A stretch of DNA of 64,000 nucleotides from Naegleria gruberi. Its lineage: Eukaryota. Below, piece by piece: positions 26,780-61,418 of the stretch. The stretch lies in NCBI GenBank assembly GCA_000004985.1, contig GG738895.1, one strand, 5' to 3'. Both the position numbers and the translations under genes were made by a program. Numbering within the stretch: the first letter of the stretch is position 1; the number at the start of each line of letters is the position of its first letter. Under the pieces are notes generated by a model. That model ran no database searches. It had not been told where the DNA came from and saw only the letters and a list, made by a program, of their open reading frames with translations.

Positions 26780-26920
26780 TTTTTTTTTAAATATTAAATA
26801 TTTTAAATACAATAATTGTAATGTCCTTAATATTTAAAGATGTATTTTGTCAAGTGTTGAAGTTCTCTTGAACTTTGATCTTTAAATAGATTTTGAAAAA
26901 AACAATTTTCAAAAAAAAAA

Positions 26921-27832
26921 ATGATTCAATTCTTGGATCCAAATGTTGTGCAATTTGAAATTTTACCTCATCTCGATGATCGATCCGTTATTTCACTCCT
27001 ATCGACATGTAAAATTGTCAATCAGGTAATTTCTATTCCGGACTATATCGAAACAAAATTGAAAATAATGGATGAAGAAATTTTGAGTCAGAAATTCAAT
27101 GAGTTGGAACAAAGTCCAATCCAAGTGAATAGAATTAATGAAATATTTAGATTAGCATATTTGAATTTTAGAGAAGGAATGTTTCAAACTGAAAAGCAAT
27201 TGTTAGGAACAGTTAAAGTGGATGAGGCACAATGTTATGGAAAATTGAAATCTCAATATACTCTTTTGCAGAGATATGTTTTCAAGAATTCCGACAAATT
27301 ATCACCACACTGTAATAGGAGTGTTTTTTCAGGTTCAACAGGATTTTGGAATTCTCATAGTGTTGATTTTAAAATCTCAAAAGAGAATACTGTATATTAT
27401 TGGTCCATTGTCCTTACAGCATTTGATCGTAAGATATCAAATAGCTGGGCAATACTTGTAGGTTTTGCTGAAGAGGATGCTGCCTCATCATTATCTAAAA
27501 GCTGGATTCCATCTGGATATTGTGTCAAATCAAATGCAATACTTGAAAATAGTTATACATCATACACAGAGAGCCTTGTGAATACGGAAGGAGATGTCAT
27601 TGGAATTGAGTGCTATGTCCAAAACAAAACAGTCTATTTCAATGTTTACTCTCCTTCGAGGAACCATCAGACCTTTCAATTCAAATCTGTGAATAGTAAT
27701 ATAGTACCAATGGTATCTATGGTACACTCTCAATCACTCCAATTACTTTCATTACTTCCGTGGGATGGGCATGTGGAAAGCTTGAAATCCTTTGGAGAAT
27801 GTGCAACAAGGATTTGTACAGCAGAAGAATGA
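26921..27832 (+). CDS. F-box-like + SPRY-like domain protein (copy 1 of an inverted pair)
   Basis: The N-terminus reads VQFEILPHLDDRSVISLLSTCKIV (F-box-like). The C-terminus reads YYWSIVLTAF...WAILVGFAEE...GDVIGIECYVQNKTVYFNV, which fits the SPRY core pattern. It is about 89 percent identical in protein to 52502..53413 (-). Confidence 0.7.
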   Translation: MIQFLDPNVVQFEILPHLDDRSVISLLSTCKIVNQVISIPDYIETKLKIMDEEILSQKFNELEQSPIQVNRINEIFRLAYLNFREGMFQTEKQLLGTVKVDEAQCYGKLKSQYTLLQRYVFKNSDKLSPHCNRSVFSGSTGFWNSHSVDFKISKENTVYYWSIVLTAFDRKISNSWAILVGFAEEDAASSLSKSWIPSGYCVKSNAILENSYTSYTESLVNTEGDVIGIECYVQNKTVYFNVYSPSRNHQTFQFKSVNSNIVPMVSMVHSQSLQLLSLLPWDGHVESLKSFGECATRICTAEE

Positions 27833-27966
27833 TTTTATTGTTTGAAGAATTAAATTTCAAACAATAAATTACTATTCTATTATTGATGGATATCCAATGA
27901 TGATGTTCACTGAATATCAATGTTTTCCAGTATTGAAACCTTGATCTCTTTTTTACAACAAAAAAA

Positions 27967-29454: not shown

Positions 29455-29593
29455 AACAAATGAAAGTCAACTAGTTGCCTCATCACAACATGATGTTTAG
29501 AAGAGAATCAAAGATAGCCACCTTTTTGAATTGAGGGTTTTATTTCAAGTCGATGGATGGGAAGTGTACCAACATACCACATTTAATGAGCTA

Positions 29594-30393: not shown

Positions 30394-30503
30394 TTTTTTT
30401 AGACGAATGTTTATTGTAATGAAAACTAATCTGTACTGGAAAGTAAATCATAAACATTCTGTTGTCTGTCACAGCTTAGCGAGAGACTTTCTTATTTACC
30501 ATT

Positions 30504-31664: not shown

Positions 31665-31800
31665 TTTTTTTCATTATAATGATAGTTTCCAATAAGTGAA
31701 GCTTCATTATCTACAAGTAACCTCCATTAATCAACTATTTGAAATCTCAATCGAGGTTGCATTCTGTCTATTCAAAAAATTTAGTTAATTGCCCAAAAGA

Positions 31801-33611: not shown

Positions 33612-34388
33612 ATGCAACAAGATCAAGAAGATGCCACAATAGTTTTCCTGCATGATTTCGCTTTCTATAACCAAAATTCTTCCTCGGAATACTTGGTCAA
33701 TCTCTTGAAGAAAAACCTGTCAAGGCCAAGGACAAGATTTAACATGAAAAAAGTTGACAGTTTCCAAGATTTGGAATTGAGAGAAGATTTACTACGAGGA
33801 GTGTATGGATATGGATTAAAACAATTATCAGAAATTCAAACTAAATGTATCATGCCAATAATATCATCCGAACCACCACTAGATGTTGTTTGCATTTCAA
33901 GCTCGGGGACTGGAAAGAAAACTGCATTCTCAATTGCTCTTCTCCAAAGAATAGACTTGGATCATCAAGCGTACTCTAAAGGAGCACCTCAAGCTCTAGT
34001 TATTACACCTACGAGAGAAATGAGTCAAGTCATTTCTAATCACATCAAGAAATTGGCTCATTATTTGGATGTCAAAGTATTACCTTTCCATGGAGGAGTT
34101 TCAACCAAAGAAACAATCCAAGCTCTAAATGAAATTCAACATGTAGTTGTTGGAACAAACAAATTGATGGACTTAATCAGGTTTAAAGTTTTGAATTTGA
34201 AATATTTGAAACTGATAATAATTGACAGAACAGGTTGTGATTGGCTCGACATGTATGATCAACAGATTTTGAGAATTATCAATGCATCAAACAAATTCAA
34301 CCTTCAAATATGTGTCTTTGGCGATTCGAGAAATATAGGATCGATTGAACAATATCTGAAAGATCCAATTTATTGTGAACTGGAGTAG
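33612..34388 (+). CDS. eIF4A-like DEAD-box helicase domain 1 only, with degenerate catalytic motifs (pseudo-helicase, copy 1)
   Basis: The protein is collinear with eIF4A RecA domain 1. The Q-motif region is FQDLELREDLLRGVYGYGL..LSEIQ. Walker A is SSSGTGKKT, and PTREMS replaces PTRELA. VVGT is present. DEAD is replaced by IIDR and SAT by VFG. It ends at the DPI...E domain boundary. Only ~295 nt remain before the next gene, so no domain 2 can be encoded. Confidence 0.7.
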   Translation: MQQDQEDATIVFLHDFAFYNQNSSSEYLVNLLKKNLSRPRTRFNMKKVDSFQDLELREDLLRGVYGYGLKQLSEIQTKCIMPIISSEPPLDVVCISSSGTGKKTAFSIALLQRIDLDHQAYSKGAPQALVITPTREMSQVISNHIKKLAHYLDVKVLPFHGGVSTKETIQALNEIQHVVVGTNKLMDLIRFKVLNLKYLKLIIIDRTGCDWLDMYDQQILRIINASNKFNLQICVFGDSRNIGSIEQYLKDPIYCELE

Positions 34389-34683: not shown

Positions 34684-35775
34684 ATGGGAAACAATCAACA
34701 ACCCACATCCCAACCACCAGTTTTAAAAGATGGCGCTCTTCCGAGTGTTAGTACTCCATCATCAGCATGTTATGAACGCACATTAATGCAAGAATATTTT
34801 CCTAATAATTGTAAATTAATTCGAGTTTGTGATCATGATGAAGAAAATCGAAGGAAACAAGAGGAGAATTTGAAGAATTATCGGGAGAAATACTTGTCTC
34901 GATGTAATGGAATATTGGAGAAGATGTTACCTGAGGAAATTATTGTTGAAATTTTGTATTACTTGCCAATGAAGAGTTTGATCAAATTACAAATGGTTTC
35001 AAAGAATTTTCGCTTGTATTGGACTGAACTTCCTGGATTGTGGGATAAATTTTCAGATTATCCCAAAATGATGTATATTCCAATGGTATACGAAAGTATG
35101 AGAAGTAATTTTGGATATTATAATGAATTTAGACAAAAATTAATTAATTTACATGAAAAGCCAACACGAAATTTTGATTTTACTGGATATCAATACAAAG
35201 CCATCGTTTTGGGAGATAAAAAGTGTGGGAAAACCATTTTGCATAACAGAGTCTTCAAAGGCGAACCATTTTCTCAAGAATATGTCTATACGATCGGAGT
35301 AGATTTTTCTACCACAATTTCCAAACAAAACATATACATTCAATCTTGGGATACAGGTGGAGATGAAAGATTTAGAACAATTAATATCAATTTCTTTAGG
35401 GGTATGAAAGGCCACTTTTACTGCTTTGATTTGAATAATCACGAGTCATTTGAAGTAATGAAGGACATTTTTCAAGATTGGAAGAATGTATATCTCAAAG
35501 GTGAAGACCTTAGTTCATATTTTACTAAGATTTCATTCGCATTGGTGGGATTGAAATCAGATTTGGAACGCAAAGTATCAAGAGATGAAATTCATGAATT
35601 CTTGGAAAATATTGAACCACTGAAGGATAAGACTTTGCACACCAGTAGAGTCCAATACTTTGAGTTGAGTTCTAAAGAAGATTCAATTTCAGATTTACTT
35701 TTTCCATTTGTCTATAGTTATCATAATGTAATGGAAATACCAAGGCAATATTCAACAAGTATAAGTGAAATGTAA
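34684..35775 (+). CDS. MG-start + F-box + Rab-like small GTPase fusion protein (copy 1)
   Basis: The N-terminus is MGNNQQ. The F-box reads LPEEIIVEILYYLPMKSLIKLQMVSKNFRLYW. The GTPase motifs are G1 GDKKCGKT, G2 YTIGVDF, G3 WDTGGDERF, G4 GLKSDL and G5 ELSSKE. There is no C-terminal Cys. Confidence 0.75.
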   Translation: MGNNQQPTSQPPVLKDGALPSVSTPSSACYERTLMQEYFPNNCKLIRVCDHDEENRRKQEENLKNYREKYLSRCNGILEKMLPEEIIVEILYYLPMKSLIKLQMVSKNFRLYWTELPGLWDKFSDYPKMMYIPMVYESMRSNFGYYNEFRQKLINLHEKPTRNFDFTGYQYKAIVLGDKKCGKTILHNRVFKGEPFSQEYVYTIGVDFSTTISKQNIYIQSWDTGGDERFRTININFFRGMKGHFYCFDLNNHESFEVMKDIFQDWKNVYLKGEDLSSYFTKISFALVGLKSDLERKVSRDEIHEFLENIEPLKDKTLHTSRVQYFELSSKEDSISDLLFPFVYSYHNVMEIPRQYSTSISEM

Positions 35776-35924: not shown

Positions 35925-38900
35925 TTAAATCATTAAGAACTGAACAAAGACCACTAAGCACAATACTTCAGTAACAAAATAGCTAGCATTAGCAACAGAA
36001 ACTCTATCCGATTTTCCAGGTGAACCCCTTCTTGATGGTTCTGGAATTGGTTGGGAAGTACTACTTTTTGGTTGTGGAATAGATGGTTGTGGATTAACAG
36101 GACTCTCTCCATTACAATTCATCTCATAAGCTCCAATATCTGGTGCCTTTCCATAATAAGGCATTCCAACATTAGTTCCCTTATCAATCAATGTAATGTT
36201 GCTGTCACATCTCAATCTAAAATCATTAGCCAAATAATCTTTGAAATAATTGGTGGCATTATTGTAATTATTTTCAAAAATGGTGTTTGGTCCAATAACT
36301 GGTTTCCAAATACCTTGGAAATAGCTCCCAACAATTGCAATATAATTGTAATCAGTTTCCCAATATGGAAGAAGATCAAACTTTGCACTAGAAGTTCCAA
36401 TATTCAAGTCAACCAACTGAATAGTATTGTCCAAGAAGGCATTATTCTTCATGGAAACACTTCTTGGATAGTAACTAATCATTGCCGAATCAAAAATTGC
36501 TTGGAATACCAATTCATCAAGAATGGATCTTGTCAACCCTCTTACTTCCTCAATAATTGAAAGACCAGCATTTGAATACGAGAAAGCACCTGTACTGGAG
36601 CTTAATAACCCTCTTTTTGTAACAGCAGTCCAATATGGATAAGCAAGACCATCTTGATCCAATTGAGGAAGAACATAATCTTTGTGAACTGACATGAAAT
36701 TAGTGTCATTAATCACATTGTTAATGAAATTGATAATTTCAGCCTTATCACCACTTGTTAAATCTGAAGCTGTAGAATAAGATCTAATTCTTGATACAAG
36801 AGTTTCATTTTTGGACCAAACTAATTTGTTTCCATTTTCGGTTGGGTTTACAATACTGTTAAAAAGAGTATTCCAATTTGAAGTGGTAGTACTATCTATC
36901 AAAGCACATCTGCTATTATCTGTCTTGACAGCAAATCTCAAAAATGATTGATAGAATTGATTATTATGCAGCACAACTCTAGCAGCATGATTGACACCAA
37001 CTGGACCTCCAATAAAGACATTTCGTCTGAAGATAACTAAACCATTTTGTTCCATCCACATGTTCTGATTACCAAGTTTGTTAATCAATACGTTATCTTC
37101 GAGAACAATGTTATTGATATTGGTAAATTGAATATTATCTGGATGTTGACGATATGAAGTTTGATGCTCAACTCGATTGTTTTTGATTAGAATATTCCAA
37201 TTACTATATGCCAATTGAGTTCCAGAACCAACCCAAATACCATTATTATAATTCTTGTAAATGTACATGTTCTTAATTTGTGAATCGTTCACCATACTTG
37301 CAAAGTTTACACCATTGTTGTGATTATAACTAATCTTGCCGCCATCAACATTAATATTAGTTGCATCTCTGAAACTAAATCCATTTTCACCATTTCCATA
37401 TGAAGAGCAGTTCAATAATTGAACACTATCAGTGAATTGACCAAAAAATCCCATTGAAGCATACTTTCTAAACATCATATCTTGAACAATTAAACCATCC
37501 CCGTAAACTATTGAAATGCCATTGGTCAAGGCAGATGCTTCAAGCATGACACCACTCACCTTAGGATCCTTATCAAGTGAAACTTGAATGATATTTCCTT
37601 CTGCGGTATATTGATTAGCACGAGAGAATGATCCAATATGATTGGCAATAGCATACGAATCTTTCAAGACTATTCCCATTGGAGTAGTAAGTCCTGGCGG
37701 AATGGCATTAATTCCAATAGTATTGGTAGTGGCATTGTAATAGATAATTGTTCGAGGTTGAATGGCATTTCCAAATTGATTGTAATGGTAGAAATCAGCA
37801 CCAACCCAGAAATTATCTGAAACAGGATTTCCTGCAGCATCATATTTGAACATGTCATCAACTTCCAAATAGACTATTCCATTTAAAGTGTATGAAACAT
37901 TCTTTGGAGTGAGATAATTAGTATGATCATATTCATCATCCAAATCATATGGAAGAGGTTTCATTGCCAAACTCAATTTCTCGCCATCTGCATAAATATA
38001 CGAAGTTGAAACTTGAAGTTGACCCTTATAGATGGAAATTGGTGTGGACATGACCTTTTCCAAATTTTTAGGATCAATAATTAATGAACCATCCAAAACT
38101 GCTGAATAAGTTTTGGAATTTCCAGAGGAAGGAGTTGGTGGATTCAAAGGTTTGATAGTAATTGGATGTTTGGAATGGGTTGGGCGATCAAAATAGATTG
38201 ATTCTCTATAGATACCATTTCCAACAATTAAGGTGTCATCTGGAAGTAACATGTATTGAGCTGCATTCAAAGTTGACCAAGCAGAAGATAGACCAAGACC
38301 ATCATTAGAATCGGATCCACTCAATTGATTAACATAGTAGGTCAATCCATTTCTGTTGTGCATTTGTTTACCTTGATAAACAGTAACAGATTGAGATCTC
38401 AAAGTTGCTCCTTTGGAATTTCCTGGATTTCTGTCATAAAAACCAAATTTCAAGATTTTAAACTTTTGAATAGCACTAGAATCGGTATCTGTTACAATGA
38501 CTTGATAATCATTAGCACTGGAACCCAATTTAGCCAACTGAATTGAAATTCCATTTGAAGACCATTCAGCATAAAGTTTGTAAGTGGAATAAAGCAATGG
38601 GACATGAATTAATGCTAATTTGGAGCTAGAATATAAGCGAACAGATTGACCATTCATAATTCTGGTAATGGACATGGTTGGATACAAACTAATCTTGTAA
38701 TAATTGTTTTGGTCAACCAGGAGAACAAAACCAAGATCATAGCTGGTAGATAGAAAACCAGTTTGCAAATTGCTTGAAAATGTAACACCATCAGTAGTGT
38801 CATACGGAGTGTCATAGGTGACAATCGAATCATTTTGATAAATTTGCAACAATTGACTAGCAATACCAACATTTCCTTTTTGGGTATTCCAACCAGCCAT

Positions 38901-39326
38901 GCCATTGCTAAAATTACTCTGCATCAACACCTTCAAACTATTTGGAGTAGGCAATGCAATAGATTGAATAGTAATCATGTGAGTAATGGTTATCTTTTTC
39001 CCATTCACATCATTATACGAAACGTTTCTCATCACCACAGTTTCGCCAATCGATTGTGTACTATAAACCAGAGCTGAATTATAATTATATAAACCAGTTT
39101 TCAATGGAGAACCATCTGCCATTGAATAAGCGATCTGAACTGAAGTTGAAGAATAGGAATCATTGAAATAGGTAATTCTTGGATTTAAAATTACTGAACC
39201 GAATTGATGCATGATAACTTTCTGGATGGGAGTAACGTAGAGTACATCCTGAACAGTTTGTGCATGTGTAACGGTATGAAAAACTGTCAGGAGGAGCAAA
39301 ATGACAAGTGGCAGTTTTGCTTTCAT
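35925..39326 (-). CDS. Large secreted right-handed beta-helix (pectin-lyase-fold, PbH1 repeat) protein with C-terminal Pro/Ser stalk and hydrophobic tail
   Basis: 1133-aa intronless ORF with signal-like MKAKLPLVILLLLTVFHTVTHA. It has a run of PbH1-like turns (NGISIVYGDG.., NGENGFSFRDATNINV, NHNNGVNFAS, NYNNGIWVGS, NIQFTNINNIVLEDN). The C-terminus reads PQPSIPQPKSSTSQPIPEP...LCLVVFVQFLMI. Confidence 0.7.
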   Translation of the reverse strand: MKAKLPLVILLLLTVFHTVTHAQTVQDVLYVTPIQKVIMHQFGSVILNPRITYFNDSYSSTSVQIAYSMADGSPLKTGLYNYNSALVYSTQSIGETVVMRNVSYNDVNGKKITITHMITIQSIALPTPNSLKVLMQSNFSNGMAGWNTQKGNVGIASQLLQIYQNDSIVTYDTPYDTTDGVTFSSNLQTGFLSTSYDLGFVLLVDQNNYYKISLYPTMSITRIMNGQSVRLYSSSKLALIHVPLLYSTYKLYAEWSSNGISIQLAKLGSSANDYQVIVTDTDSSAIQKFKILKFGFYDRNPGNSKGATLRSQSVTVYQGKQMHNRNGLTYYVNQLSGSDSNDGLGLSSAWSTLNAAQYMLLPDDTLIVGNGIYRESIYFDRPTHSKHPITIKPLNPPTPSSGNSKTYSAVLDGSLIIDPKNLEKVMSTPISIYKGQLQVSTSYIYADGEKLSLAMKPLPYDLDDEYDHTNYLTPKNVSYTLNGIVYLEVDDMFKYDAAGNPVSDNFWVGADFYHYNQFGNAIQPRTIIYYNATTNTIGINAIPPGLTTPMGIVLKDSYAIANHIGSFSRANQYTAEGNIIQVSLDKDPKVSGVMLEASALTNGISIVYGDGLIVQDMMFRKYASMGFFGQFTDSVQLLNCSSYGNGENGFSFRDATNINVDGGKISYNHNNGVNFASMVNDSQIKNMYIYKNYNNGIWVGSGTQLAYSNWNILIKNNRVEHQTSYRQHPDNIQFTNINNIVLEDNVLINKLGNQNMWMEQNGLVIFRRNVFIGGPVGVNHAARVVLHNNQFYQSFLRFAVKTDNSRCALIDSTTTSNWNTLFNSIVNPTENGNKLVWSKNETLVSRIRSYSTASDLTSGDKAEIINFINNVINDTNFMSVHKDYVLPQLDQDGLAYPYWTAVTKRGLLSSSTGAFSYSNAGLSIIEEVRGLTRSILDELVFQAIFDSAMISYYPRSVSMKNNAFLDNTIQLVDLNIGTSSAKFDLLPYWETDYNYIAIVGSYFQGIWKPVIGPNTIFENNYNNATNYFKDYLANDFRLRCDSNITLIDKGTNVGMPYYGKAPDIGAYEMNCNGESPVNPQPSIPQPKSSTSQPIPEPSRRGSPGKSDRVSVANASYFVTEVLCLVVFVQFLMI

Positions 39327-52501: not shown

Positions 52502-53413
52502 TCATTCTTCTGCTGTACAAATCTTTGTTGCACATTCTCCAAAGGATTTCAGGCTTTCCACATGTCCATCCCACGGAAGTAATGAAAGTAATTGGAGTGA
52601 TTGAGAGTCTACCAGAGATACCATTGGTACTATATTACTATTAACATATTCGAATTGAAAAGTCTGATGGTTCCTCGAAGGGGAGTAAACATTGAAATAG
52701 ACTGTTTTGTTTTGGATATAACATTCAATTCCAATGACATCTCCTTCAGTATTCACACTGTGCTCTGAGTATAATTTATAACTACTTGTAACTGTTGCAT
52801 TCGATTTGATACAATAGCCATATAGAATCCATTTATCATATAGTGATGAGACAGCATCCTCTTCAGCAAAACCTACAATTATTGCCCAGCCATTTGATAT
52901 CTTCCAATCATAAGCTGTAAGTACTATGGACCAATAATATATAGTATTCTCTTTTGAGATTTTAAAATCAACACTATGAGAATTCCAAAATCCTGTTGAA
53001 CCTGAAAAAACACTCCTATTACAGTGTGGTGATAATTTGTTAGAATTCTTGAAAACATATCTCTTTAAAAGAGTATATTGAGATTTCAATTTTCCATAAC
53101 ATTGTGCCTCATCCACTTTAACTGTTCCTATCAATTGCTTTTCTGTTTGGAACATTCCTTCTCTAAAATTCAAATATGCTAATCTAAATATTTCATTAAT
53201 TCTATTCACTTGGATTGGACTTTGTTCCAACTCATTGAATTTCTGACTCAAAATTTCTTCATCCATTATTTTCAATTTTGTTTCGATATAGTCCGGAATA
53301 GAAATTACCTGATGGACAATTTTACATGTCGATAGGAGTGAAATAACGGATCGATCATCGAGATGAGGTAAAATTTCAAATTGCACAACATTCGGATCCA
53401 AGAATTGAATCAT
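52502..53413 (-). CDS. F-box-like + SPRY-like domain protein (copy 2 of an inverted pair)
   Basis: The A-tract+ATG at 53413 is the same start as copy 1. The protein is 303 aa with the same stop context (CTAEE*). See 26921..27832. Confidence 0.7.
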   Translation of the reverse strand: MIQFLDPNVVQFEILPHLDDRSVISLLSTCKIVHQVISIPDYIETKLKIMDEEILSQKFNELEQSPIQVNRINEIFRLAYLNFREGMFQTEKQLIGTVKVDEAQCYGKLKSQYTLLKRYVFKNSNKLSPHCNRSVFSGSTGFWNSHSVDFKISKENTIYYWSIVLTAYDWKISNGWAIIVGFAEEDAVSSLYDKWILYGYCIKSNATVTSSYKLYSEHSVNTEGDVIGIECYIQNKTVYFNVYSPSRNHQTFQFEYVNSNIVPMVSLVDSQSLQLLSLLPWDGHVESLKSFGECATKICTAEE

Positions 53414-53581
53414 TTTTTTTTTGAAAATTGTTTTTTCATAGATCAAAGTTCGTTTTTTGTTTTTTACAATGAACAGTTTTTTGTTATAATTTTTAAATAG
53501 TGAATGGAAAAATTACAACAATTTAAGGAGCTAGCCCAAATGTTTACAACATAACACAATAATTTGAAAGTTTTTAAAAAA

Positions 53582-55018
53582 ATGAAAAAAGTTAAAAAAG
53601 TTAAAAAAGTTAAAAAATCGAAAACTGTCAAGTCATTGGCAGTTGAAGATCAAGTGGTCATACAGGCTGGCCTGTTAGCACCGTTATCATCATCGGATGT
53701 TTTGTTTTATCAAATATTACCATGCTTTCCATTAAAATTGTTATTCGAAACAGCAAGATTAGTTTGTAAAGAATGGAATTTATTTATTGTGGGAAATCAT
53801 AATGATGCTGGTCATGTAAAAGAATATTTTACAGGTCGGTACTCTCTGATCATTCCCCGTGAAAAAGAAGAATCTCTGATGACTTGTATTCGTGCTGGAT
53901 ATTTCCGAAATATAATTCAAAAATTACATTTCAAAGCTTTTGATTCATTTTGTAATCCTTCTATTGTTAGAAACTCAGGAGTGATTGAAATGGTTCCACA
54001 AATTAGTTCAACTTTATTGGATGATTCTTTTCCAAATGTTGAGGAAATTATTATTGGAACTGTCAATTCAGATTCTTGTATTATAAGAGAGGGATTTTGT
54101 AAAAACAAACTGGAAAAGTTGAAATTGTTGAAGATGACCATGCAAAGGGACGTGTCAATTTCTGATATATTTTCATGTGATTTTATGCAAAATTTGACAT
54201 GCTTGAATTTGGATAACTGCTTTATTGATTATACAACAGTTTTACAAATTAGTGAATGTCCACTGAAGAACTTGGAGAAATTGTGCTTAGGATATAATTC
54301 AATAACTCAATTGGGAGCTCTTACATTGTCCAAAAGCAAACATCTTTCAAAATTAACATATTTAGATTTGACTTATAATGACATTGGTGATGAAGGGCTT
54401 AGACATCTTTGTGAAAGTGAAACACTGTGTAATATTTCAAATCTATTATTGGAATTTAATGTAATTTCAGAATTGGAGCCTCTTTTACAAAGCTCCAATA
54501 TGAAAAATCTAGCACATTTGAATTTGTATAGATGTAGTTTGAATTTAAAAAGCTTTATGTCATTGATATCTTGCCCTAATTTACCAAAACTTTCAGAAAT
54601 TAGTCTATACCATGCAGGTTTAACAGGAATGCAAGAATTAGAAACTTCTCACATCATAGTATCCAACTCAATCAATCGACTTGATCTATCCTCTTGCAGT
54701 TTAGATGATTTGGGATTTAGGTGTTTGTTAAATTCCCTCAAATACGACTCCATTACTGAACTAAATCTTAGGTACAATGAAATTGGAAATGAAGGATTGT
54801 TGTGCCTAGCTGAATGTCCCTTCCTGACCAATTTGAGGATACTCGACCTATCTGGAAATCCAATAGATGATGAAGGTGCCCTCTACCTGGCACAAAACGT
54901 TCAATTTCCAAATATTAAGGAATTAATTTTAGAGTTTACCAAAATGACCAAAAATGGCAGTGAAAAATTTTCAGAAATTATTTTACAACGATTCCCAAAT
55001 GTTAATTTAACTATTTAA
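53582..55018 (+). CDS. F-box-like + RNI-type leucine-rich repeat protein with N-terminal (KKV)n tract
   Basis: First ATG at 53582. MKKVKKVKKVKKSK comes from a 9-nt DNA repeat. The F-box-like segment is FYQILPCFPLKLLFETARLVCKEWNLFI. It is followed by ~28-aa LRRs (LTYLDLTYNDIGDEGLRHL..., LRILDLSGNPIDDEGALYL). Confidence 0.7.
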   Translation: MKKVKKVKKVKKSKTVKSLAVEDQVVIQAGLLAPLSSSDVLFYQILPCFPLKLLFETARLVCKEWNLFIVGNHNDAGHVKEYFTGRYSLIIPREKEESLMTCIRAGYFRNIIQKLHFKAFDSFCNPSIVRNSGVIEMVPQISSTLLDDSFPNVEEIIIGTVNSDSCIIREGFCKNKLEKLKLLKMTMQRDVSISDIFSCDFMQNLTCLNLDNCFIDYTTVLQISECPLKNLEKLCLGYNSITQLGALTLSKSKHLSKLTYLDLTYNDIGDEGLRHLCESETLCNISNLLLEFNVISELEPLLQSSNMKNLAHLNLYRCSLNLKSFMSLISCPNLPKLSEISLYHAGLTGMQELETSHIIVSNSINRLDLSSCSLDDLGFRCLLNSLKYDSITELNLRYNEIGNEGLLCLAECPFLTNLRILDLSGNPIDDEGALYLAQNVQFPNIKELILEFTKMTKNGSEKFSEIILQRFPNVNLTI

Positions 55019-55099: not shown

Positions 55100-56207
55100 T
55101 CATTTTATTCTTGGTAATATTGTTAAAATTATATTTAAAAAGCCTTCAGTTTCAATATTGTTTGCATTGATATTGAGATCTGTTAACTGAGATAAGTGAC
55201 TCAATGATTTGGCACCTTCAGCACCAATATTATTTGTACTGATATTCAAAGTGGTCAATTTGCCTAGTTGACTGATATACATTGCTCCAGTGTTTCCAAT
55301 TTTAGAATAACTAATATTCAAGTCTGTTAATTGTGACATTTCGGATATAATTTTTGCCCCTTCATCTCCAATATAATTACAACTAATATTCAAATTATTT
55401 AAATTTTCCATTTGACTAATGAACTTGACTCCAACTACAGACAAATTTGGACAATTCGAAACATCAAGCTTTGTTAACTGTTTAATTTCACTAATTTTCT
55501 CTACAGATCTATCATTAAGATCAGAATATCTTACACGAAGTGATTTCAAAGTTTTTGATTGTGAAATAACATTCATCTGAAATGTTTCATCATTTTCTAA
55601 TGAAAATGCTGAATAACTCAAATCGAGTGAAATCAAATTTTTCATTCCAAATACAGAAAAAGATCCTGAATATCCAATACGATTGCTACATATATTCAAA
55701 CTAGTCAAGTTTGCCATTGTACTGATATGTTTAGCTCCTTCATCTCCAATTGAATTATAACTCAGATCAAGATTGGTCAATTGAGTCAAATTTTGAGAAA
55801 TTAATTGAGCTCCTTTCGTCCTAATTCTACAAACACTATTCCCAACAAGTTTCAATTCAACAATATTCCCAATAATTCCAGATTTAACAATATTTTCCAC
55901 AATTTTATCCTCAACCTCCAAATCAACAGAAAGTTTTGCCCTATTTTTGATTACTTCATGCCAATTACGAGAAATTAATAAACAACTTTGTATAATCATT
56001 GAAGAATCCAAAAAGGTAAGAATTTCATAACAAATATCATCAGGAAATACTTGATTTCGAAATTATTATATAAAAAATTACATAATTTTAGCAATTACAC
56101 TCACAATCAGGATTGGATTTCATTCCGATAGGTGCATCAATGGATTGTTTCATCTTTTTCCTATTAGAAAAATTATCATCATTTTCCCTTCTTTTTGTTT
56201 TTGACAT
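55100..56207 (-). CDS. F-box-like + 24-residue LRR protein; 2 exons (56105..56207, 55100..56049)
   Basis: Exon 1 has an A-tract+ATG and encodes the basic MSKTKRRENDDNFSNRKKMKQ...SNPD. A GTGAGT donor opens the 55-nt intron 56050..56104 (acceptor TCAAG). Exon 2 starts L-FPDDICYEILTFLDSSMIIQSCLLISRNWHEVI, followed by LRRs such as LTDLNISYSKIGNTGAMYISQLGK. Confidence 0.7.
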
Positions 56208-56411
56208 TTTTTTAAATTTCAAATTAATTTGAAAATTGGAAAATCAAAACATTGTAAACGATTTAATTGGCGGACCATCTCACTTAATAATCAACTCAAA
56301 ACATCCACCTCCCCGACTGCTAATAAGCAGGGATGTTTAAGCGGACTATTGGTCCACCATTCGAATAGACATCAACAAGAATCGAATTTATGTAAACTCA
56401 TCAAAAAAAAA

Positions 56412-57143
56412 ATGCACGACTGTTGTAAGCAAGGACACATTCACACAGGTACTCCAACAGGTACACTCACTCAAATTTCCGGAAGAGAAACCTATGTGAA
56501 AAAACATTCGAATAGTAATGGAAAGGCCATTTTATTTATTCATGATGCTTTCGGATTGCCATTCATTAATAATCAACTCTTGGTTGATACCTTCTCTGAA
56601 GAAGCACAAGCTGATGTTTATTTACCTGATTTTTTCAATGGTGATGGTGTTCCAATTCAAGTCCTGTCAAACATGTCAAGTTTTGATTTTAATCCTTGGA
56701 GAGCTAGAAATGGACGTGATAAATTCCCAATTATTGAAAGTTATACAAGAGCACTGAAAGAACAGGAAGGAATTAAAAAACTTGTAGTAATTGGATTTTG
56801 TTGGGGTGGTTGGGGTTCCATTCAATTAGGTCAATTGGATGATTTGGTGGATGGAGTTGTTTTGGCTCATCCATCAATGCTTGAAATTCCATCTGATATT
56901 GAGGCATTGAAAAAGCCAAGTTTATTCATTTGTGCTGAGGTTGACCATGCATTCTCAGAGGAAGCACGTTTATTATCTCAATCAATTTTGGAAAATAAGG
57001 AAATGGATGCAACATTTAAATTGTGGAATGGAGTGAGACATGGATTTGCAGTTCGTTTTGATACGGAGGATAAGATTGCTGCTCAAGCTGCTGAACAAGC
57101 AAAGGATGAGGCAGTTAAATTCTTTAAGAGAATACTTCAATAA
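56412..57143 (+). CDS. Dienelactone hydrolase family protein
   Basis: A-tract+ATG at 56412. The nucleophile motif VIGFCWGGWG (G-x-C-x-G) and the C-terminal HGFAVR His motif are present. Length is 243 aa. Confidence 0.85.
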   Translation: MHDCCKQGHIHTGTPTGTLTQISGRETYVKKHSNSNGKAILFIHDAFGLPFINNQLLVDTFSEEAQADVYLPDFFNGDGVPIQVLSNMSSFDFNPWRARNGRDKFPIIESYTRALKEQEGIKKLVVIGFCWGGWGSIQLGQLDDLVDGVVLAHPSMLEIPSDIEALKKPSLFICAEVDHAFSEEARLLSQSILENKEMDATFKLWNGVRHGFAVRFDTEDKIAAQAAEQAKDEAVKFFKRILQ

Positions 57144-57322
57144 TTATTTAATACTTATTAGAAATTTATTATATGTAAAGTAACCATTGATATTTAAGTA
57201 TTTACGGAAATGCTTAATATTTGGACCCTTAACTACGGCATTGACAATAAATCAAAAACAAGATGAAATCATCATTGGTTGTGAAACACTTTATTAAGGG
57301 TAATTAAGCAAACGTTAACGTA

Positions 57323-57395
57323 GCCCGTCTAGCTCAGTCGGTAGAGCGCAAGGCTCTTAACCTTGTGGTCGTGGGTTCGACCCCCACGGTGGGCG
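57323..57395 (+). tRNA. tRNA-Lys (anticodon CUU)
   Basis: GCCCGTCTAGCTCAGTCGGTAGAGCGCAAGGCTCTTAACCTTGTGGTCGTGGGTTCGACCCCCACGGTGGGCG folds as a cloverleaf. The anticodon loop is CUCUUAA. A T-rich tract lies downstream. Confidence 0.95.
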
Positions 57396-57695
57396 TTTCC
57401 TTTTAATTTTATTATCTTTGATTTTAGCCAATCAACTGAGGAAAAATCAACTCTTCATAAGGCCATCCTAATTCGAATCAGGTACATAGTTTGCACAAGA
57501 GAAAAAAGTATTATTTTAGAACATGACGGAACATCAAGAATTGTTGTAACACAACATATTAATTGTTTCCTGTTGGTATGGCTTGTCTGGTATCGTTTCT
57601 TGTGTCATATTAATCAGAAAAAACTACCAATATTTTCAGCATCAAATAATCAATTATCATCATCATGATGGAGGTAAAACAAGAAGAAGGTTGGT

Positions 57696-59141
57696 ATGTT
57701 CTCGAGAACAAGGGTTATTTTCAAAATAATAATAATAATAATAATTAATGAATTGCTAATAGAGAATATTATATTTTCGGATGATGTTTGTTTTGAAATT
57801 ATTTCCATGATTGATGATTCGTGGTTTATTTTGAATAATTGTTCTTTAATTTCAAAACAATGGTTTAATGTGATCAAGGATCGTTCAAAACTTGTTATTC
57901 AATTTAAAAAAAAATTAACAGAAAAAAGAGTTGAATTATTAATGAAAAGTCAATTCATGAACAGTATTGTAAATGTTAAGTTTTCTTTTGGGTTGCTTAA
58001 CTCTTCAGATAAACTTAAATTCATAAGTGAAATGAAACATTTAACATCACTTGATATTGCTGACAATCAAATTGGTGATGAGGGATCTAAATTCATAAGT
58101 GGAATGAAACATTTAACATCACTTAATATAGATCGCAATCAAATTGGTGTAGAAGGAGCCAAACTCATAAGTGGAATGAAATCATTAATATCACTTAGTA
58201 TTGGTGATAATCAAATTGGTGTAGAAGGAGCCAAACTCATAAGTGGAATGAAACATTTAACATCACTTGATATAAATCGCAATCAAATTGGTGTAGAAGG
58301 AGCCAAATCAATAAGTAGAATGAAACAATTAACATCACTTAATATATATTACAATCAAATTGGTGCTGAGGGAGCCAAATCAATAAGTGGAATGAAACAA
58401 TTAACATCACTTGATATTGGTGGAAATCAAATTGGTGTAGAAGAATCCAAATACATAAGTGAAATGAAACAATTAACATCACTTGATATATATAACAATC
58501 AAATTGGTGTAGAAGGAGCCAAATCAATAAGTGGAATGAAACAATTAACATCACTTAATATTGGTTTCAATCGAATTGGTGTAGAAGGATCCAAACTCAT
58601 AAGTGAAATGAAACAATTAACATCACTTAATATTGGTTCCAATGAAATTGGTGTAGAAGGGTCCAAATTCATACCTGAAATGAAACATTTAACATCACTT
58701 AATATATATTACAATGAAATTGGTGATGAAGGATCCAAATACATAAGTGAAATGAAACAATTAACATCACTTGATATATATTACAATGAAATTGGTGTGG
58801 AAGGAGCCAAATACATAAGTGAAATGAAACAATTAACATCACTTGGTATTAGTGATAATCAAATTGGTGTAGAAGGAGCCAAATTCATAAGTGAAATGAA
58901 ATTATTAACATCACTTGATATTGCTGACAATCAAATTGGTGATGAGGGATCTAAATTCATAAGTGAAATGAAATCATTAACATCGCTTAATGTTAATTCC
59001 AATCAAATTGGTGATGAGGGAGCCAAACTTATAAGTGGAATGAAACAATTAACATCACTTAAAATATATTACAATCAAATTGGTGAAACTTTATTAATGT
59101 CTGTTATATCAATAACAGCTGAGACCAAATCTTTAGACTAA
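57696..59141 (+). CDS. F-box-like + 24-residue LRR protein (14 full units plus one partial); 5' end uncertain
   Basis: FSDDVCFEIISMIDDSWFILNNCSLISKQWFNVI is paralogous to the 55100 gene, and is followed by a regular LRR array. The ORF-internal ATG at 57696 would translate an (AAT)7 microsatellite as poly-Ile. An alternative is ATGATGGAG (57665) + GTAAAA donor + intron to 57764. Confidence 0.65.
   Translation: MFSRTRVIFKIIIIIIINELLIENIIFSDDVCFEIISMIDDSWFILNNCSLISKQWFNVIKDRSKLVIQFKKKLTEKRVELLMKSQFMNSIVNVKFSFGLLNSSDKLKFISEMKHLTSLDIADNQIGDEGSKFISGMKHLTSLNIDRNQIGVEGAKLISGMKSLISLSIGDNQIGVEGAKLISGMKHLTSLDINRNQIGVEGAKSISRMKQLTSLNIYYNQIGAEGAKSISGMKQLTSLDIGGNQIGVEESKYISEMKQLTSLDIYNNQIGVEGAKSISGMKQLTSLNIGFNRIGVEGSKLISEMKQLTSLNIGSNEIGVEGSKFIPEMKHLTSLNIYYNEIGDEGSKYISEMKQLTSLDIYYNEIGVEGAKYISEMKQLTSLGISDNQIGVEGAKFISEMKLLTSLDIADNQIGDEGSKFISEMKSLTSLNVNSNQIGDEGAKLISGMKQLTSLKIYYNQIGETLLMSVISITAETKSLD
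58010..59090 (+). repeat. 72-nt coding tandem repeat array (LRR units xLTSLxIxxNQIGxEGAKxISxMK)
   Basis: There are 14 full units plus 1 partial unit. Long stretches are shared verbatim between units, for example atgaaacaattaacatcacttgatat and caaattggtgtagaaggagccaaa. Confidence 0.9.
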
Positions 59142-59287
59142 CTAAGATTCTTTGTAGGGATTTGGGTTTGTTGATATTAGGCACCGTACATTGTGTAAAG
59201 CTTCATTTATTTAACTACCTCAATATCTTAAAGTGTGGAGTATTGTGATTGAAACGTTGAAAGATGAGTTTACATAATTCAAACAAT

Positions 59288-60300
59288 TCACTTACAGATA
59301 TCTTCAAGATGGGATCTTGGAGAGAAGATCAGTGGATGCTTTTGCATGTCAATGTAGAGTAAGGAACGATTGGTGCTCATTTCTGGGAATTCCTTTTCCT
59401 CTAAGGAAAGTTTGAAATGTCTGACAGTGTTGACAATTGACATGCAAAGTTCTAAGGTTGCAATTCTACTACCTGGGCATTTTCTTGCCTTAATTCGCAA
59501 GTTATTTGAAGTAATTGATAGAAAACTTACACCAACACCAAATGGACTGTTTACAAATGAACTCTTCATTGCCAATGGTGAATTTCTTTCATGTCTTTCT
59601 GGAATGAATTCTTGAGCTCGTGGCACAAACTCTTCACTCAAACAAGCACGTCTTTGGAGTGCAATAACTGTTGTACCCTTTGGAATATTTTATCCTCCCA
59701 GTTCTGTATCGTTATTGAGTATTCTTGCCAAAATCCAAAGGGATTGAGGCGTAAAACTTCTTCCACAAAGTTTTTAGTGAGCTTTAGTTTCTTGAATTGC
59801 TCTGCATTTACTAATAGACCGTTCTCTGAAGTAACCTCGTCTAAATTTGGCTCTCCAAATACCTCTAATAGTAGTAAAGTTTTTTTTGGTAATCTGGATG
59901 ATGAGCTAATCTGTACATGACATGACTCATCATTGTCATTGTAATGTCCATTGCAGCTTGAAGGAATGAATTCATAACTGTTCATTCTTTGAACGTTCCA
60001 TTAGCAGTTCATACAATCTTGGCTTTTCGCTTGGGTTGACCTTAAACCTGTTCATTACATAATTTGTACATATTCGAATGATTTTTCACAGGTAAATTCC
60101 ATTCTCTTGTATTCTTTTGTTTTAAAATATTGATACATGGATGGTTTTGTCAATAATCTGGATCTTGTGTTGGTTCTAAGTATTTAATTAATCTTCTTAC
60201 ATTCAATTGACTCAGGAGTTACGACTTGATCTTGGAATTCTGGTTTCATGGCAATGTTAAACAATTGCCTCGTCTCTTGCCATGGTTCCTCATATAGCAT
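59288..60300 (-). pseudogene. Cytochrome P450 relic: N-terminally truncated, two frameshifts and one nonsense codon
   Basis: Reading 5' to 3' on the minus strand, the remnants are:
- EPWQETRQLF (W..R region)
- I-helix-like AAMDITMTMMSHVMYRLAHHPDYQKK, with a frame change at a T8/A8 run (59880..59887)
- K-helix EEVLRLNP, with a frame change near 59735..59745
- ELGG-TAA-NIPKGT, with the stop at 59690..59692 where Tyr is expected
- FIPERH
- an intact heme loop FGVG|ARKCPG, split by a 42-nt GTAAGT intron (59489..59530)
The upstream space is occupied by the stop of the next gene at 60321. Confidence 0.7.
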
Positions 60301-60320
60301 TTTGCAAAGCAAATGGATGT

Positions 60321-61418
60321 TTATAGCATGGTTTTTAGAGTGGCAACAGCATAGAGGAATGGAAAGAGAAGGTCATCATCAGAGCACTCTTCTTTGGAGC
60401 TTAATTCAAAATATTGAACTTTGGTTGTGTGAATTGTTTTTTGTTGAGGCTCTGGCTCGACCATTTTTAGAAAATTGTAAATTTCAAGTCTTGTTACTTG
60501 ATGATCGAGATCTGATTTCAATCCGAGTAAGAGGAAACATCTATCATTGATATTGTAATCTGAAATATCTTTGACTGTCATTTCGTGATAAATTTCAATC
60601 ATTTCCTCAAATGATTTATGACTATTCAAATCAAAACAATACACAAAAACATTAGCTCTCGAATAAACAGATTTGAATAGCGATAGATATGTTTGATTTC
60701 CACATGTATCCCAAATCTTGAATGCAAATTCCGTCCCACTTCCATAAAGGTAATGCTTGTCAATTACTGGGAAAGTTATTGAGGGTGTATAATTTTCCGA
60801 AAATGGTAATTGATTAAAAGCTCTATCAATCAAAGTGGATTTACCACACCCTGATGACCCAACAAATATGTATTGGGCACATTGAGGCAATTCAACATCC
60901 TCATCTATTACAAATCTCTTCAGCAAGACATTTTTAACATTTTCATAACTTTCCATATCAGAAAACATGTACAACATTGGACTTTTTCTCCTCAAATCCT
61001 TCCACAGAACTTCAAATCTGGTCCAATACATTAAAAATCTCTTTGAAACTCGTTGCATTCTCCCTATACTTTCCATATCCAAAAATTGTAAAATGTGTAA
61101 AATTATTTCATGAGGAAAATTCGTCAACCAACCATCCTTCTCCTCACCCTGATTGAAATACTCATCATTGCCTCCATATCCTCTCCTAATTCCATTAAAA
61201 ATTCCTATCGGAAGCAATTCTACATCCGAAACAATAGTAGAAAGAATAGATTTCCTCTTGAATCCTCTTGGTAATTCCAACACGGGAAAATGTAGGGATT
61301 TTCCTGTAGAATAAAGTAAATTTTCAGATTGTTCACGGGAGGGGATTTTATTTTCATCTCTTGCTTGGTGATTCAGAGATGATGATGAGGGCGTCTCTGT
61401 TGATGTTTGTTGTCCCAT
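60321..61418 (-). CDS. MG-start + F-box + Rab-like small GTPase fusion protein (copy 2)
   Basis: MGQQTS fits the myristoylation consensus. The F-box reads FPHEIILHILQFLDMESIGRMQRVSKRFLMYW. The GTPase motifs are G1 GSSGCGKS, G3 WDTCGNQTY, G4 GLKSDL and G5 ELSSKE. There is no C-terminal Cys. Confidence 0.75.
   Translation of the reverse strand: MGQQTSTETPSSSSLNHQARDENKIPSREQSENLLYSTGKSLHFPVLELPRGFKRKSILSTIVSDVELLPIGIFNGIRRGYGGNDEYFNQGEEKDGWLTNFPHEIILHILQFLDMESIGRMQRVSKRFLMYWTRFEVLWKDLRRKSPMLYMFSDMESYENVKNVLLKRFVIDEDVELPQCAQYIFVGSSGCGKSTLIDRAFNQLPFSENYTPSITFPVIDKHYLYGSGTEFAFKIWDTCGNQTYLSLFKSVYSRANVFVYCFDLNSHKSFEEMIEIYHEMTVKDISDYNINDRCFLLLGLKSDLDHQVTRLEIYNFLKMVEPEPQQKTIHTTKVQYFELSSKEECSDDDLLFPFLYAVATLKTML

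What the first reader, a model, noticed from the sequence alone, without database searches (positions are those of the whole stretch)
26866..61418. Three different paralog pairs, each pair in opposite orientation, interleaved across 35 kb
The three pairs are:
- F-box/SPRY: 26921 + and 52502 -
- single-domain eIF4A-like: 33612 + and 45766 -
- F-box-GTPase: 34684 + and 60321 -
In every case the left copy is on + and the right copy on -. The order is not a perfect palindrome (SPRY, eIF4A-like, GTPase | eIF4A-like, SPRY, GTPase). Divergence also differs greatly between pairs: the SPRY pair is ~89 percent identical, while the others appear well below 50 percent by eye. This suggests an old inverted segmental duplication that was later rearranged and partly re-homogenised, or repeated inverted duplications at one hotspot.
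Basis: partly seen in the sequence, partly recalled or inferred. Interest (0 to 1): 0.6.

Follow-up and report, generated by a model that had tools for sequence, protein, structure and literature searches.

The report
Three inverted local gene duplicates, Naegleria
In this stretch of the amoeba Naegleria gruberi, three genes each have a copy nearby on the opposite strand; these look like separate duplications of very different ages, with part of the youngest pair recently overwritten by its partner, which is ordinary gene-family turnover and not one large mirrored duplication.

Summary
The window is Naegleria gruberi NEG-M nuclear DNA (exact protein matches, 333,733-bp scaffold). There are three paralog pairs, left copy on + and right copy on - in each: F-box/SPRY-like at 90% aa identity, an eIF4A-like protein with only the first helicase domain at 49%, and F-box-GTPase at 36%. 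Apart from three LRR genes, no other paralogs occur in the window.

The SPRY and DEAD-only partners are each other's closest detected relatives in a 5.8-billion-protein database. The GTPase partners are closest within N. gruberi, but two same-strand N. lovaniensis genes join their clade. That split is therefore about as old as the species split.

One mirrored segmental duplication is not supported:
- The gene order is not mirrored, even for the adjacent DEAD-GTPase unit.
- None of the intervening genes is duplicated.
- The SPRY flanks show no residual homology.
- Divergence ranges from dS 0.11 to near saturation.

"Partly re-homogenised" is supported for the SPRY pair only. Its first 340 nt plus 76 nt upstream are 98.5% identical between copies, against 91% for the rest. 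A strain contig carries right-copy states in that 5' part (permutation p = 0.001).

Opposite orientation in all three pairs has a chance probability of 1/8. This is ordinary birth-and-death duplication with gene conversion, and interest is low.

The parts
26921..27832 (+). Left F-box/SPRY-like gene (EFC40002, 303 aa). This is the slower-evolving copy.
   Evidence: Exact match to the N. gruberi protein. Pfam SPRY 21.2 bits, below the 26.3 cutoff. F-box 14.5 bits, below cutoff. 90% identical to the right copy.
52502..53413 (-). Right F-box/SPRY-like gene (EFC40073, 303 aa from the ATG at 53413). This is the faster-evolving copy.
   Evidence: Polarised by the outgroup L002: 32 right-derived vs 12 left-derived nucleotide changes and 15 vs 6 amino-acid changes, clustered at residues 158-219 and 256-269.
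26845..27260 (+). Left arm of the recently homogenised tract of the SPRY pair: about 76 nt upstream plus the first 340 nt of the CDS.
   Evidence: Left-right identity is 98.5% in CDS 1-340 and 91.1% in CDS 341-913. Strain contig L003 carries right-copy states in this tract. Breakpoint lies between 27203 and 27268, max chi-square 20.1, permutation p = 0.001.
53074..53488 (-). Right arm of the same homogenised tract.
   Evidence: 53412-53488 is 100% identical to L003 224-300. L003 vs the right copy is 99.7% over CDS 1-340.
33612..34388 (+). Left DEAD-only gene: eIF4A-like RecA1 domain alone, with degenerate motifs (EFC40005, annotated from an internal Met).
   Evidence: Pfam DEAD 72 bits. DEAD is replaced by DRTG, SAT by GDS, and Walker A GKT by GKK; the protein ends after RecA1.
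45766..46560 (-). Right DEAD-only gene (EFC40071).
   Evidence: Pfam DEAD 81 bits. 49% identical to the left copy. DEAD is replaced by EEMS and SAT by GCA. Best PDB matches are eIF4A-I residues 13-215. The same locus is seen in strain contigs L004 and L005.
34684..35775 (+). Left F-box-GTPase gene (EFC40006, 'rab family small GTPase'), 295 nt downstream of the left DEAD-only gene.
   Evidence: Pfam F-box 29 bits and Ras 83 bits, both above cutoff. Closest relatives are N. lovaniensis P0020 and P0018 at 41% and 39% over the full length.
60321..61418 (-). Right F-box-GTPase gene (EFC40075).
   Evidence: Pfam F-box-like 29 bits and Ras 81 bits. 36% identical to the left copy from the F-box onward. 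It sits in the same clade as the left copy and the two N. lovaniensis genes, 85% bootstrap.
45360..45430 (+). tRNA-Gly, 335 nt beyond the stop codon of the right DEAD-only copy.
   Evidence: ARAGORN.
52314..52386 (+). tRNA-Asn, 115 nt beyond the stop codon of the right SPRY copy.
   Evidence: ARAGORN. Its similarity to tRNA-Lys at 57323-57395 explains the only other DNA repeat in the region.
55100..59141 (.). A fourth paralog pair, also on opposite strands but divergent: LRR genes 55100-55999(-) and 57696-59141(+), 39% identical. A third LRR gene lies at 53582-55018(+).

Best explanation
These are three separate, roughly gene-sized local duplications in Naegleria gruberi, made at different times in fast-evolving, lineage-restricted gene families. 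The F-box-GTPase split is about as old as the split from N. lovaniensis. The DEAD-only split is old, with synonymous sites close to saturation. The SPRY pair is either young or kept similar by copying between the two loci. The 5' part of the SPRY pair (about 76 nt upstream plus 340 nt of CDS) was homogenised by interlocus gene conversion, or by a crossover between the inverted copies, at about the time N. gruberi strains diverged. The rest of that gene has diverged, faster in the right copy. All six genes are intact. The shared opposite orientation has no demonstrated cause and is compatible with chance. Shown: paralogy, closest-relative status, unequal divergence, lack of collinearity, and the mosaic pattern. 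Inferred: the number and order of events, and conversion as the cause of the mosaic.
For: Identity of the organism and genes: where the predicted accession numbers were confirmed.

The three pairs are the only non-LRR paralogs in the window.

DEAD-only pair: the partner scores 202 bits at 50% identity, and the next hit is a full-length eIF4A at 35%.

SPRY pair: the only relatives found are the partner, a 59% homolog on Logan contig L002, and a strain variant.

GTPase pair: an exhaustive HMMER search places P0004, P0005 and N. lovaniensis P0020 at 449-622 bits, then drops to 203 bits. The clade of four has 85% bootstrap support, and the gruberi pair is sister in about 9% of replicates.

Divergence: SPRY dS 0.11 and dN 0.05. 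Four-fold sites are 87% identical for SPRY, 47% for DEAD (chance 31%) and 52% for GTPase (chance 40%).

Extent of homology: SPRY homology ends one base after the stop codon, and the 570-nt flanks score no better than shuffled sequence. None of the genes between the left copies has a counterpart on the right.

Mosaic.
Against: If conversion acts on the SPRY pair, its low divergence does not date the duplication, so a common old origin with the other two pairs cannot be excluded.

The DEAD and GTPase pairs are both near saturation and could be the same age.

The mosaic rests on one metagenome contig (L003, k127 assembly). It could be a chimera of that strain's two copies: the NEG-M copies share a 163-nt identical stretch. 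Its first 223 nt match neither NEG-M locus.

The protein searches for SPRY and DEAD used a word index that missed a 41%-identical GTPase relative (P0020, compare). More distant family members in N. lovaniensis or N. fowleri may therefore exist.

All four paralog pairs in the window lie on opposite strands, which hints at a non-random cause that I could not test.
Confidence: 0.6

Rival explanations
1. One old inverted segmental duplication of a block carrying SPRY, DEAD-only and GTPase genes. It was later rearranged, lost the other duplicated genes, and had the SPRY pair re-homogenised by gene conversion.
For: All three pairs are left + / right -. Conversion, or something like it, does act on the SPRY pair. 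SPRY homology stops exactly at the CDS end, as expected if only the constrained coding part stayed similar enough to keep converting. The DEAD and GTPase pairs are both near synonymous saturation.
Against: The order on the right is D', S', G', not G', D', S'. The adjacent D-G unit (295 nt apart) is not mirrored either: D' and G' lie 14 kb apart in the wrong order. At least four genes and a tRNA gene between S and D have no counterpart on the right. There is no flank homology. This model needs at least one transposition, several gene losses and whole-gene conversion, compared with three simple duplications.
Confidence: 0.12
2. The duplications were originally same-strand (tandem-type). A single later inversion flipped one block, with one breakpoint between 35.8 and 45.7 kb and the other outside the cluster, turning all three pairs into opposite-strand pairs at once.
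For: One event explains the uniform orientation. The closest GTPase relatives in N. lovaniensis are a same-strand pair 5 kb apart. Undoing the inversion gives S D G G' S' D', with the two GTPase genes adjacent. Strain contigs show structural breaks right at the 5' ends of left S (about 26845) and right D' (46583).
Against: The novel sequence at the strain breakpoints is absent from the whole window, so it is not a simple inversion between those two points. If the SPRY duplication is as young as it looks (dS up to 0.19 in the unconverted part), the inversion must be younger still, or SPRY was duplicated afterwards in inverted orientation anyway. The LRR pair 55100(-)/57696(+) lies wholly inside the supposedly inverted block and is still on opposite strands.
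Confidence: 0.18
3. Coincidence: unrelated members of large families happen to lie in the same window.
For: The F-box-GTPase family has at least eight other N. gruberi members on at least six other scaffolds.
Against: SPRY and DEAD-only each have their closest detected relative 12-25 kb away. The two GTPases are reciprocal best hits within N. gruberi and share a clade with 85% support.
Confidence: 0.05
4. Assembly artefact, for example allelic haplotypes placed as an inverted repeat.
For: The SPRY copies are 94% identical at DNA level.
Against: There is no N in the window. The flanks of the two copies are entirely different. Independent contigs reproduce the left SPRY locus and the right DEAD locus. 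The other pairs are only 36-49% identical.
Confidence: 0.02

Closest known systems
Birth-and-death evolution of F-box and other substrate-receptor gene families by local duplication (established for plants and nematodes; cited from general knowledge, not tested here)
   Same: The genes are lineage-restricted and fast-evolving, and they are duplicated locally. Copies diverge asymmetrically, with replacements concentrated in the putative substrate-binding (SPRY) part.
   Different: Here each pair lies 12-25 kb apart on opposite strands, not as adjacent same-strand tandems. Only the GTPase genes pass the Pfam F-box cutoff.
Interlocus (ectopic) gene conversion between inverted paralogs
   Same: There is a sharp step in paralog divergence: 1.5% in the first 340 nt against 8.9% in the rest. 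A strain allele is closer to the paralog than to its own ortholog in that tract.
   Different: It rests on one short metagenome contig. The direction of transfer, and whether it was conversion or crossover, are unresolved.
Palindromes and inverted segmental duplications
   Same: Paralogs lie on opposite strands within tens of kb.
   Different: There is no mirrored collinearity, no arm-to-arm homology outside single coding regions, and very unequal divergence between pairs.
TbFRP, the FYVE-F-box-GTPase of Euglenozoa (PMC3593210)
   Same: An F-box lies N-terminal to a Rab-like GTPase domain in one polypeptide, in another discoban lineage.
   Different: The Naegleria proteins have no FYVE domain. 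That paper reports no N. gruberi ortholog of TbFRP. No orthology is claimed here.
eIF4A N-terminal (RecA1) domain
   Same: The best PDB matches are eIF4A-I residues 13-215. The Q motif and motif Ia (PTRE) are kept.
   Different: There is no RecA2 domain. DEAD and SAT are lost in both copies, and Walker A is altered in the left copy. Helicase activity is therefore not expected.

Membership tests
Inverted segmental duplication / palindrome | Homologous genes in mirrored order on the two arms | tested here: not met
   The left order is S, D, G and the right order is D', S', G'. The adjacent D-G unit is not mirrored.
Inverted segmental duplication / palindrome | Homology extends over intervening genes and intergenic DNA | tested here: not met
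   No other gene pairs appear even at E<1. The SPRY flanks score the same as shuffled sequence. DNA homology is limited to the three coding regions.
Inverted segmental duplication / palindrome | Similar divergence of all duplicated genes | tested here: not met
   Four-fold sites are 87% identical for SPRY, against 47% and 52% for the other two pairs. Conversion could mask the age of the SPRY pair.
Local gene duplicates (partners are sister copies) | Each partner is the other's closest relative genome-wide | tested here: met
   This holds for SPRY and DEAD-only, within the sensitivity of a word-indexed search.
Local gene duplicates (partners are sister copies) | The GTPase partners are sister to each other, excluding other species' genes | tested here: inconclusive
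   The clade of two gruberi and two lovaniensis genes has 85% support. Inside it, the gruberi pair is sister in about 9% of replicates, and the two alternatives get 46% and 45%. Neighbour-joining only; no ML program was available.
Interlocus gene conversion | Mosaic pattern: one segment groups with the paralog and the rest with the ortholog | tested here: met
   At informative sites the counts are 6 right-type / 1 left-type before position 27203 and 6 / 44 after it. Permutation p = 0.001. The upstream 76 nt are 100% identical to the right copy against 76% to the left.
Interlocus gene conversion | The mosaic sequence is a real haplotype, not an assembly chimera | not testable with these tools
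   L003 is a k127 metagenome contig, and no reads are available.
F-box proteins | F-box domain above the curated Pfam cutoff | tested here: met
   This applies to the two GTPase genes only: 29.0 and 27.6-29.0 bits against cutoffs of 20.5 and 24.3.
F-box proteins | F-box domain in the SPRY pair | tested here: inconclusive
   14.5-14.7 bits, E about 0.03, below cutoff but in register with the profile. UniProt names one copy an F-box domain-containing protein.
SPRY domain proteins | SPRY domain above the curated cutoff, or a matching fold | tested here: inconclusive
   21.2 and 16.6 bits against a cutoff of 26.3, covering profile positions 2-116 of 121. The AlphaFold model was unusable at pLDDT 36.7. 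A PDB profile search found nothing.
DEAD-box RNA helicases | Two RecA-like domains with motifs I, II (DEAD), III (SAT) and VI | tested here: not met
   Only RecA1 is present. DEAD is replaced by DRTG / EEMS and SAT by GDS / GCA. No RecA2 is encoded anywhere in the window.
Ras-superfamily small GTPases | Ras/Rab-type G domain above the Pfam cutoff | tested here: met
   Ras 83.2 and 80.9 bits against a cutoff of 21.6. The P-loop GxxxCGK[ST] is present. The G4 motif reads LKSD instead of NKxD in both copies and in the one N. lovaniensis protein aligned, P0018 (read from the alignment).

The most novel reading that the evidence does not exclude
Opposite-strand placement is not a coincidence. One version is that the SPRY inverted repeat (937 nt, 24.7 kb apart) mediates recurrent inversion of the segment between its arms in N. 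gruberi populations. Strain contig L003 (right-type 5' part joined to left-type 3' part and the left downstream gene) would then be a crossover product. The other version is that inverted local duplication is a systematic mode of gene birth in this genome. That version is hinted at by four of four opposite-strand pairs in the window. A second hint is a 98%-identical F-box-GTPase pair on another scaffold, whose accession numbers suggest opposite strands.
Probability: 0.12. Interest if true: 0.45.

Novelty: new member of a known kind. Interest (0 to 1): 0.2.

Why it matters
If the reading is right, this locus is a small, clean example of how Naegleria builds lineage-specific genes: single-gene duplication, asymmetric divergence, and occasional gene conversion between copies. 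It does not change any general view. Two by-products may be of more use to specialists. One is a pair of eIF4A-derived single-domain proteins with dead catalytic motifs, with no closer relative found than ordinary eIF4A. The other is a heterolobosean family of F-box-GTPase fusion proteins. The strain-level mosaic and the structural breaks at the 5' ends of two of the copies suggest that the locus is still rearranging within the species.

Tried and rejected
- Gene positions for N. gruberi proteins are not in the contig index, so I could not fetch the rest of the scaffold or the second young GTPase pair.
- Two scans of JGI metagenome contigs, one with the DEAD-only profile and one with the SPRY profile, found no relatives.
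- The AlphaFold2 model of the SPRY protein, built from a 3-sequence alignment, had pLDDT 36.7. It was unusable, so I ran no fold search.
- A PDB profile search with the SPRY alignment found nothing.
- N. lovaniensis locus L001 shares no synteny with the window beyond the GTPase and LRR genes. The outgroup SPRY contig L002 shares no neighbours with either window locus.
- I tested whether the novel upstream ends of L003 and L004 are the same repeat, overlap each other, or occur elsewhere in the window. None of these holds.
- Retroposition of the SPRY gene was considered and rejected. The homology includes upstream sequence, stops one base after the stop codon, and has no 3' UTR or poly-A remnant.
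- The DNA repeat 52321-52394 / 57330-57404 is only the similarity between tRNA-Asn and tRNA-Lys.
- By-eye F-box motifs in 27967, 31946 and 53582 were not confirmed by Pfam; 57696 gave only 15.3 bits.
- Literature searches found nothing on duplications or inversions at this locus or in N. gruberi generally.
Full report
**Source.** The window is nuclear DNA of Naegleria gruberi strain NEG-M. Six window ORFs are exact matches to GenBank proteins EFC40002, EFC40073, EFC40006, EFC40075, EFC40007 and EFC40070, all on one scaffold of 333,733 bp. G+C is 30-38% throughout, and the window contains no N.

**The observation.** All six ORFs are intact at the stated places.
- F-box/SPRY-like: 26921-27832(+) vs 52502-53413(-), 272/303 = 90%.
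- DEAD-only: 33612-34388(+) vs 45766-46560(-), 119/241 = 49%.
- F-box-GTPase: 34684-35775(+) vs 60321-61418(-), 99/274 = 36%, from the F-box to the C-terminus.

An all-against-all comparison of window ORFs finds only these three pairs plus three LRR genes. Relaxing to E<1 adds nothing.

At DNA level the only long inverted repeat is 26897-27833 vs 53436-52501, at 93.9%. The other two pairs give 66-70% matches inside the coding regions.

Pfam supports Ras plus F-box for the GTPase pair and DEAD for the helicase-like pair. For the third pair it gives only sub-threshold SPRY (21 and 17 bits against a cutoff of 26.3) and sub-threshold F-box (14.5 bits).

**Are the partners each other's closest relatives?**

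DEAD-only: in a 5.8-billion-protein database the partner is the best hit (202 bits, 50%). The next hits are ordinary two-domain eIF4A-type helicases at 35-41%.

SPRY: only three relatives appear. They are the partner, a 59%-identical protein on a 6.5-kb Logan contig (L002), and a strain variant.

These two searches use a word index that missed a 41%-identical GTPase relative (compare). Distant family members may therefore have been overlooked, but a closer one is unlikely.

GTPase: I ran the exhaustive HMMER search. The two window proteins and N. lovaniensis P0020 score 449-622 bits, and the next protein scores 203. N. gruberi has at least eight further F-box-GTPases on other scaffolds, at about 25-35% identity.

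N. lovaniensis has two members on the same strand, about 5 kb apart and 66% identical to each other (L001 4157-5230 and 10001-11125). Both are closer to the left window copy (249 and 219 bits, full length) than the right window copy is (145 bits).

In a neighbour-joining bootstrap, the four genes form a clade in 85% of replicates. Inside it the two gruberi genes are sister in only about 9%, and the two alternatives get 46% and 45%. The GTPase split is therefore about as old as, or older than, the split between the two species. It is unresolved rather than refuted.

**Ages.**
- SPRY: dS 0.11, dN 0.05.
- Four-fold degenerate sites in conserved codons are 87% identical for SPRY. They are 47% identical for DEAD-only (chance 31%) and 52% for the GTPase pair (chance 40%).
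- Two pairs are therefore close to saturation and one is young or homogenised.

**Test of a single mirrored duplication.**
- A mirror image of S, D, G would read G', D', S'. The right side reads D', S', G'.
- D and G are 295 nt apart on the left, yet their partners lie 14 kb apart in the wrong order.
- The four protein genes and the tRNA gene between S and D have no counterparts on the right.
- SPRY homology begins about 45-76 nt upstream of the ATG and ends one base after the stop codon. The next 570 nt on either side score exactly like shuffled sequence.
- The model would need a transposition, several losses and complete conversion of one pair. It is not excluded, but it is not the economical reading.

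**Homogenisation in the SPRY pair.** Divergence between the two copies is sharply stepped: 98.5% identity in the first 340 nt of the CDS against 91.1% in the remaining 573 nt. Synonymous differences alone show the same direction, 5 of 88 sites against 14 of 97 (p = 0.056).

Metagenome contig L003 (ENA ERZ929261) is 98.4% identical to the left locus, including the downstream gene 27967. It carries the right-copy state at 6 of 7 informative substitutions up to position 27203, and the left-copy state at 44 of 50 thereafter. The maximum chi-square is 20.1 with permutation p = 0.001.

Its 76 nt upstream of the ATG are 100% identical to the right copy's upstream region (53412-53488), against 76% with an 18-nt gap difference for the left copy. 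In that tract a left-locus allele and the right paralog share a more recent ancestor than two left-locus alleles do. That is the signature of interlocus conversion, or of a crossover between the inverted copies.

There are two caveats. L003 is a k127 assembly, and the NEG-M copies share an identical stretch of 163 nt, so a chimera cannot be excluded. In addition, L003 positions 1-223 match neither NEG-M locus.

The fact that homology stops exactly at the stop codon fits conversion confined to the constrained coding part. For that reason I do not treat the SPRY pair's low dS as a reliable date.

**Asymmetric divergence.** Using L002 as outgroup, 32 nucleotide changes fall on the right copy and 12 on the left (binomial p = 0.004). 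For amino acids the counts are 15 and 6, clustered at residues 158-219 and 256-269 in the SPRY-like part. The right copy is the faster one, and its reading frame is intact.

**What the genes are.** The DEAD-only proteins match eIF4A-I residues 13-215 best and stop at the end of the first RecA-like domain. DEAD is replaced by DRTG or EEMS and SAT by GDS or GCA. The left copy has GKK in place of GKT. No second helicase domain is encoded anywhere in the window. They fail the definition of a DEAD-box helicase and are best described as eIF4A-derived single-domain proteins without the catalytic motifs.

The GTPase proteins have an F-box in front of a Rab-like G domain. The closest described architecture is TbFRP of Euglenozoa, which also has a FYVE domain and for which no N. 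gruberi ortholog was reported (PMC3593210).

**Orientation.** With random orientation, three of three opposite-strand pairs has probability 1/8. The LRR pair 55100(-)/57696(+) is also on opposite strands, making four of four (1/16), but it faces outward, not inward.

One later inversion of a block containing all right-hand copies would explain the uniformity. It fits the same-strand arrangement in N. lovaniensis, and undoing it gives S D G G' S' D'. I could not test this because no N. gruberi or outgroup synteny is reachable with the tools.

The LRR pair lies wholly inside that block and is still on opposite strands. The strain breakpoints I found are not those of a simple inversion within the window.

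**Strain-level structure.** Contigs L004 and L005 (same sequencing run) reproduce the right DEAD locus with tRNA-Gly, the S49 peptidase and L28e at 98.2% and 95.5% identity. Both stop aligning at 46583, which is 23 nt upstream of the ATG. Beyond that point L004 holds 133 nt of AT-rich sequence that is absent from the window. L005 shares its last roughly 65 nt before running into an Illumina adapter at the contig end. L003 likewise departs from both NEG-M loci beyond -76. Two of the six copies therefore sit next to structural differences between strains, and this remains unexplained.

**Verdict.** The best reading is three separate single-gene duplications of different age, with recent partial homogenisation of the youngest-looking pair. 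The single mirrored segmental duplication is not supported, and the inverted orientation is not shown to be more than coincidence. This is a familiar kind of gene-family turnover in an already annotated genome, so interest is low.

Noticed in passing
window 33612-34388 (+) and 45766-46560 (-): The GenBank models (EFC40005, 214 aa; EFC40071, 217 aa) start at an internal Met. The 44-47 codons upstream are in frame and conserved between the two copies from about residue 20. A 264-aa version is called in two independent assemblies. The true start is therefore probably the upstream ATG.
   Followed up: partly
window 33612-34388 and 45766-46560: These are eIF4A-derived proteins consisting of RecA1 only. 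The DEAD and SAT motifs are lost, and Walker A is altered in one copy. No closer relative than ordinary eIF4A was found in 5.8 billion proteins. They may be a N. gruberi-specific pseudo-helicase family of unknown role.
   Followed up: partly
window 31801-57395: Five tRNA genes lie within 26 kb (Thr, Leu, Gly, Asn, Lys), and a sixth (Ala) lies at 11303. tRNA-Gly and tRNA-Asn lie 335 and 115 nt beyond the stop codons of the right DEAD-only and right SPRY copies. This may mark preferred insertion or breakpoint sites.
   Followed up: no
L003 1-223; L004 1-133; L005 24-89: In strain contigs from run ERR1078381, the sequence immediately upstream of the left SPRY copy (beyond -76) and of the right DEAD-only copy (beyond -23, window 46583) is unrelated to anything in the window. 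In NEG-M the ORF 46597-47133(+) starts only 36 nt from the DEAD-only ATG.
   Followed up: partly
another N. gruberi scaffold (358,576 bp): P0023 = EFC41291 and P0168 = EFC41360: This is a second F-box-GTPase pair, 98% identical. In this GenBank record all + strand genes of a scaffold are numbered before all - strand genes; that rule was checked by correctly predicting EFC40005 and EFC40071. An offset of 69 therefore suggests the two genes lie on opposite strands and close together.
   Followed up: partly
window 34684-35775, 60321-61418; N. lovaniensis protein P0018 (= L001 10001-11125): The G4 guanine-specificity motif reads LKSD instead of the usual NKxD in both window proteins and in the N. 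lovaniensis protein aligned with them (P0018). The switch II motif is DTGGD in the left copy and DTCGNQ in the right copy.
   Followed up: no
window 25446-26812 (-): A divergent tubulin-family gene is split by a 77-nt GT...AG intron (26166-26242). The first exon matches the Pfam Tubulin GTPase domain at 110 bits. The second exon has no Pfam match.
   Followed up: partly
window 57945-59180 (+): The LRR gene 57696-59141 contains about 14-17 tandem 72-nt (24-residue) repeats that are 82-86% identical to one another, suggesting recent internal expansion or homogenisation.
   Followed up: no
window 35925-39326 (-) and 47461-49644 (+): Two large genes appear, by eye, to have N-terminal signal peptides and hydrophobic C-terminal tails (not tested). 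They have weak, sub-threshold matches to right-handed beta-helix (21.1 bits) and heparinase II/III C-terminal (19.5 bits) families, which are polysaccharide-lyase-like. They are not paralogs of each other.
   Followed up: no
L001 (N. lovaniensis PYSW02000003.1:20081-41205) and P0024: N. lovaniensis has two same-strand F-box-GTPase genes about 5 kb apart, with an LRR gene next to them. A third, 133-aa fragment (C9374_009504) lies on the same contig. The family is therefore locally clustered in that species too.
   Followed up: partly
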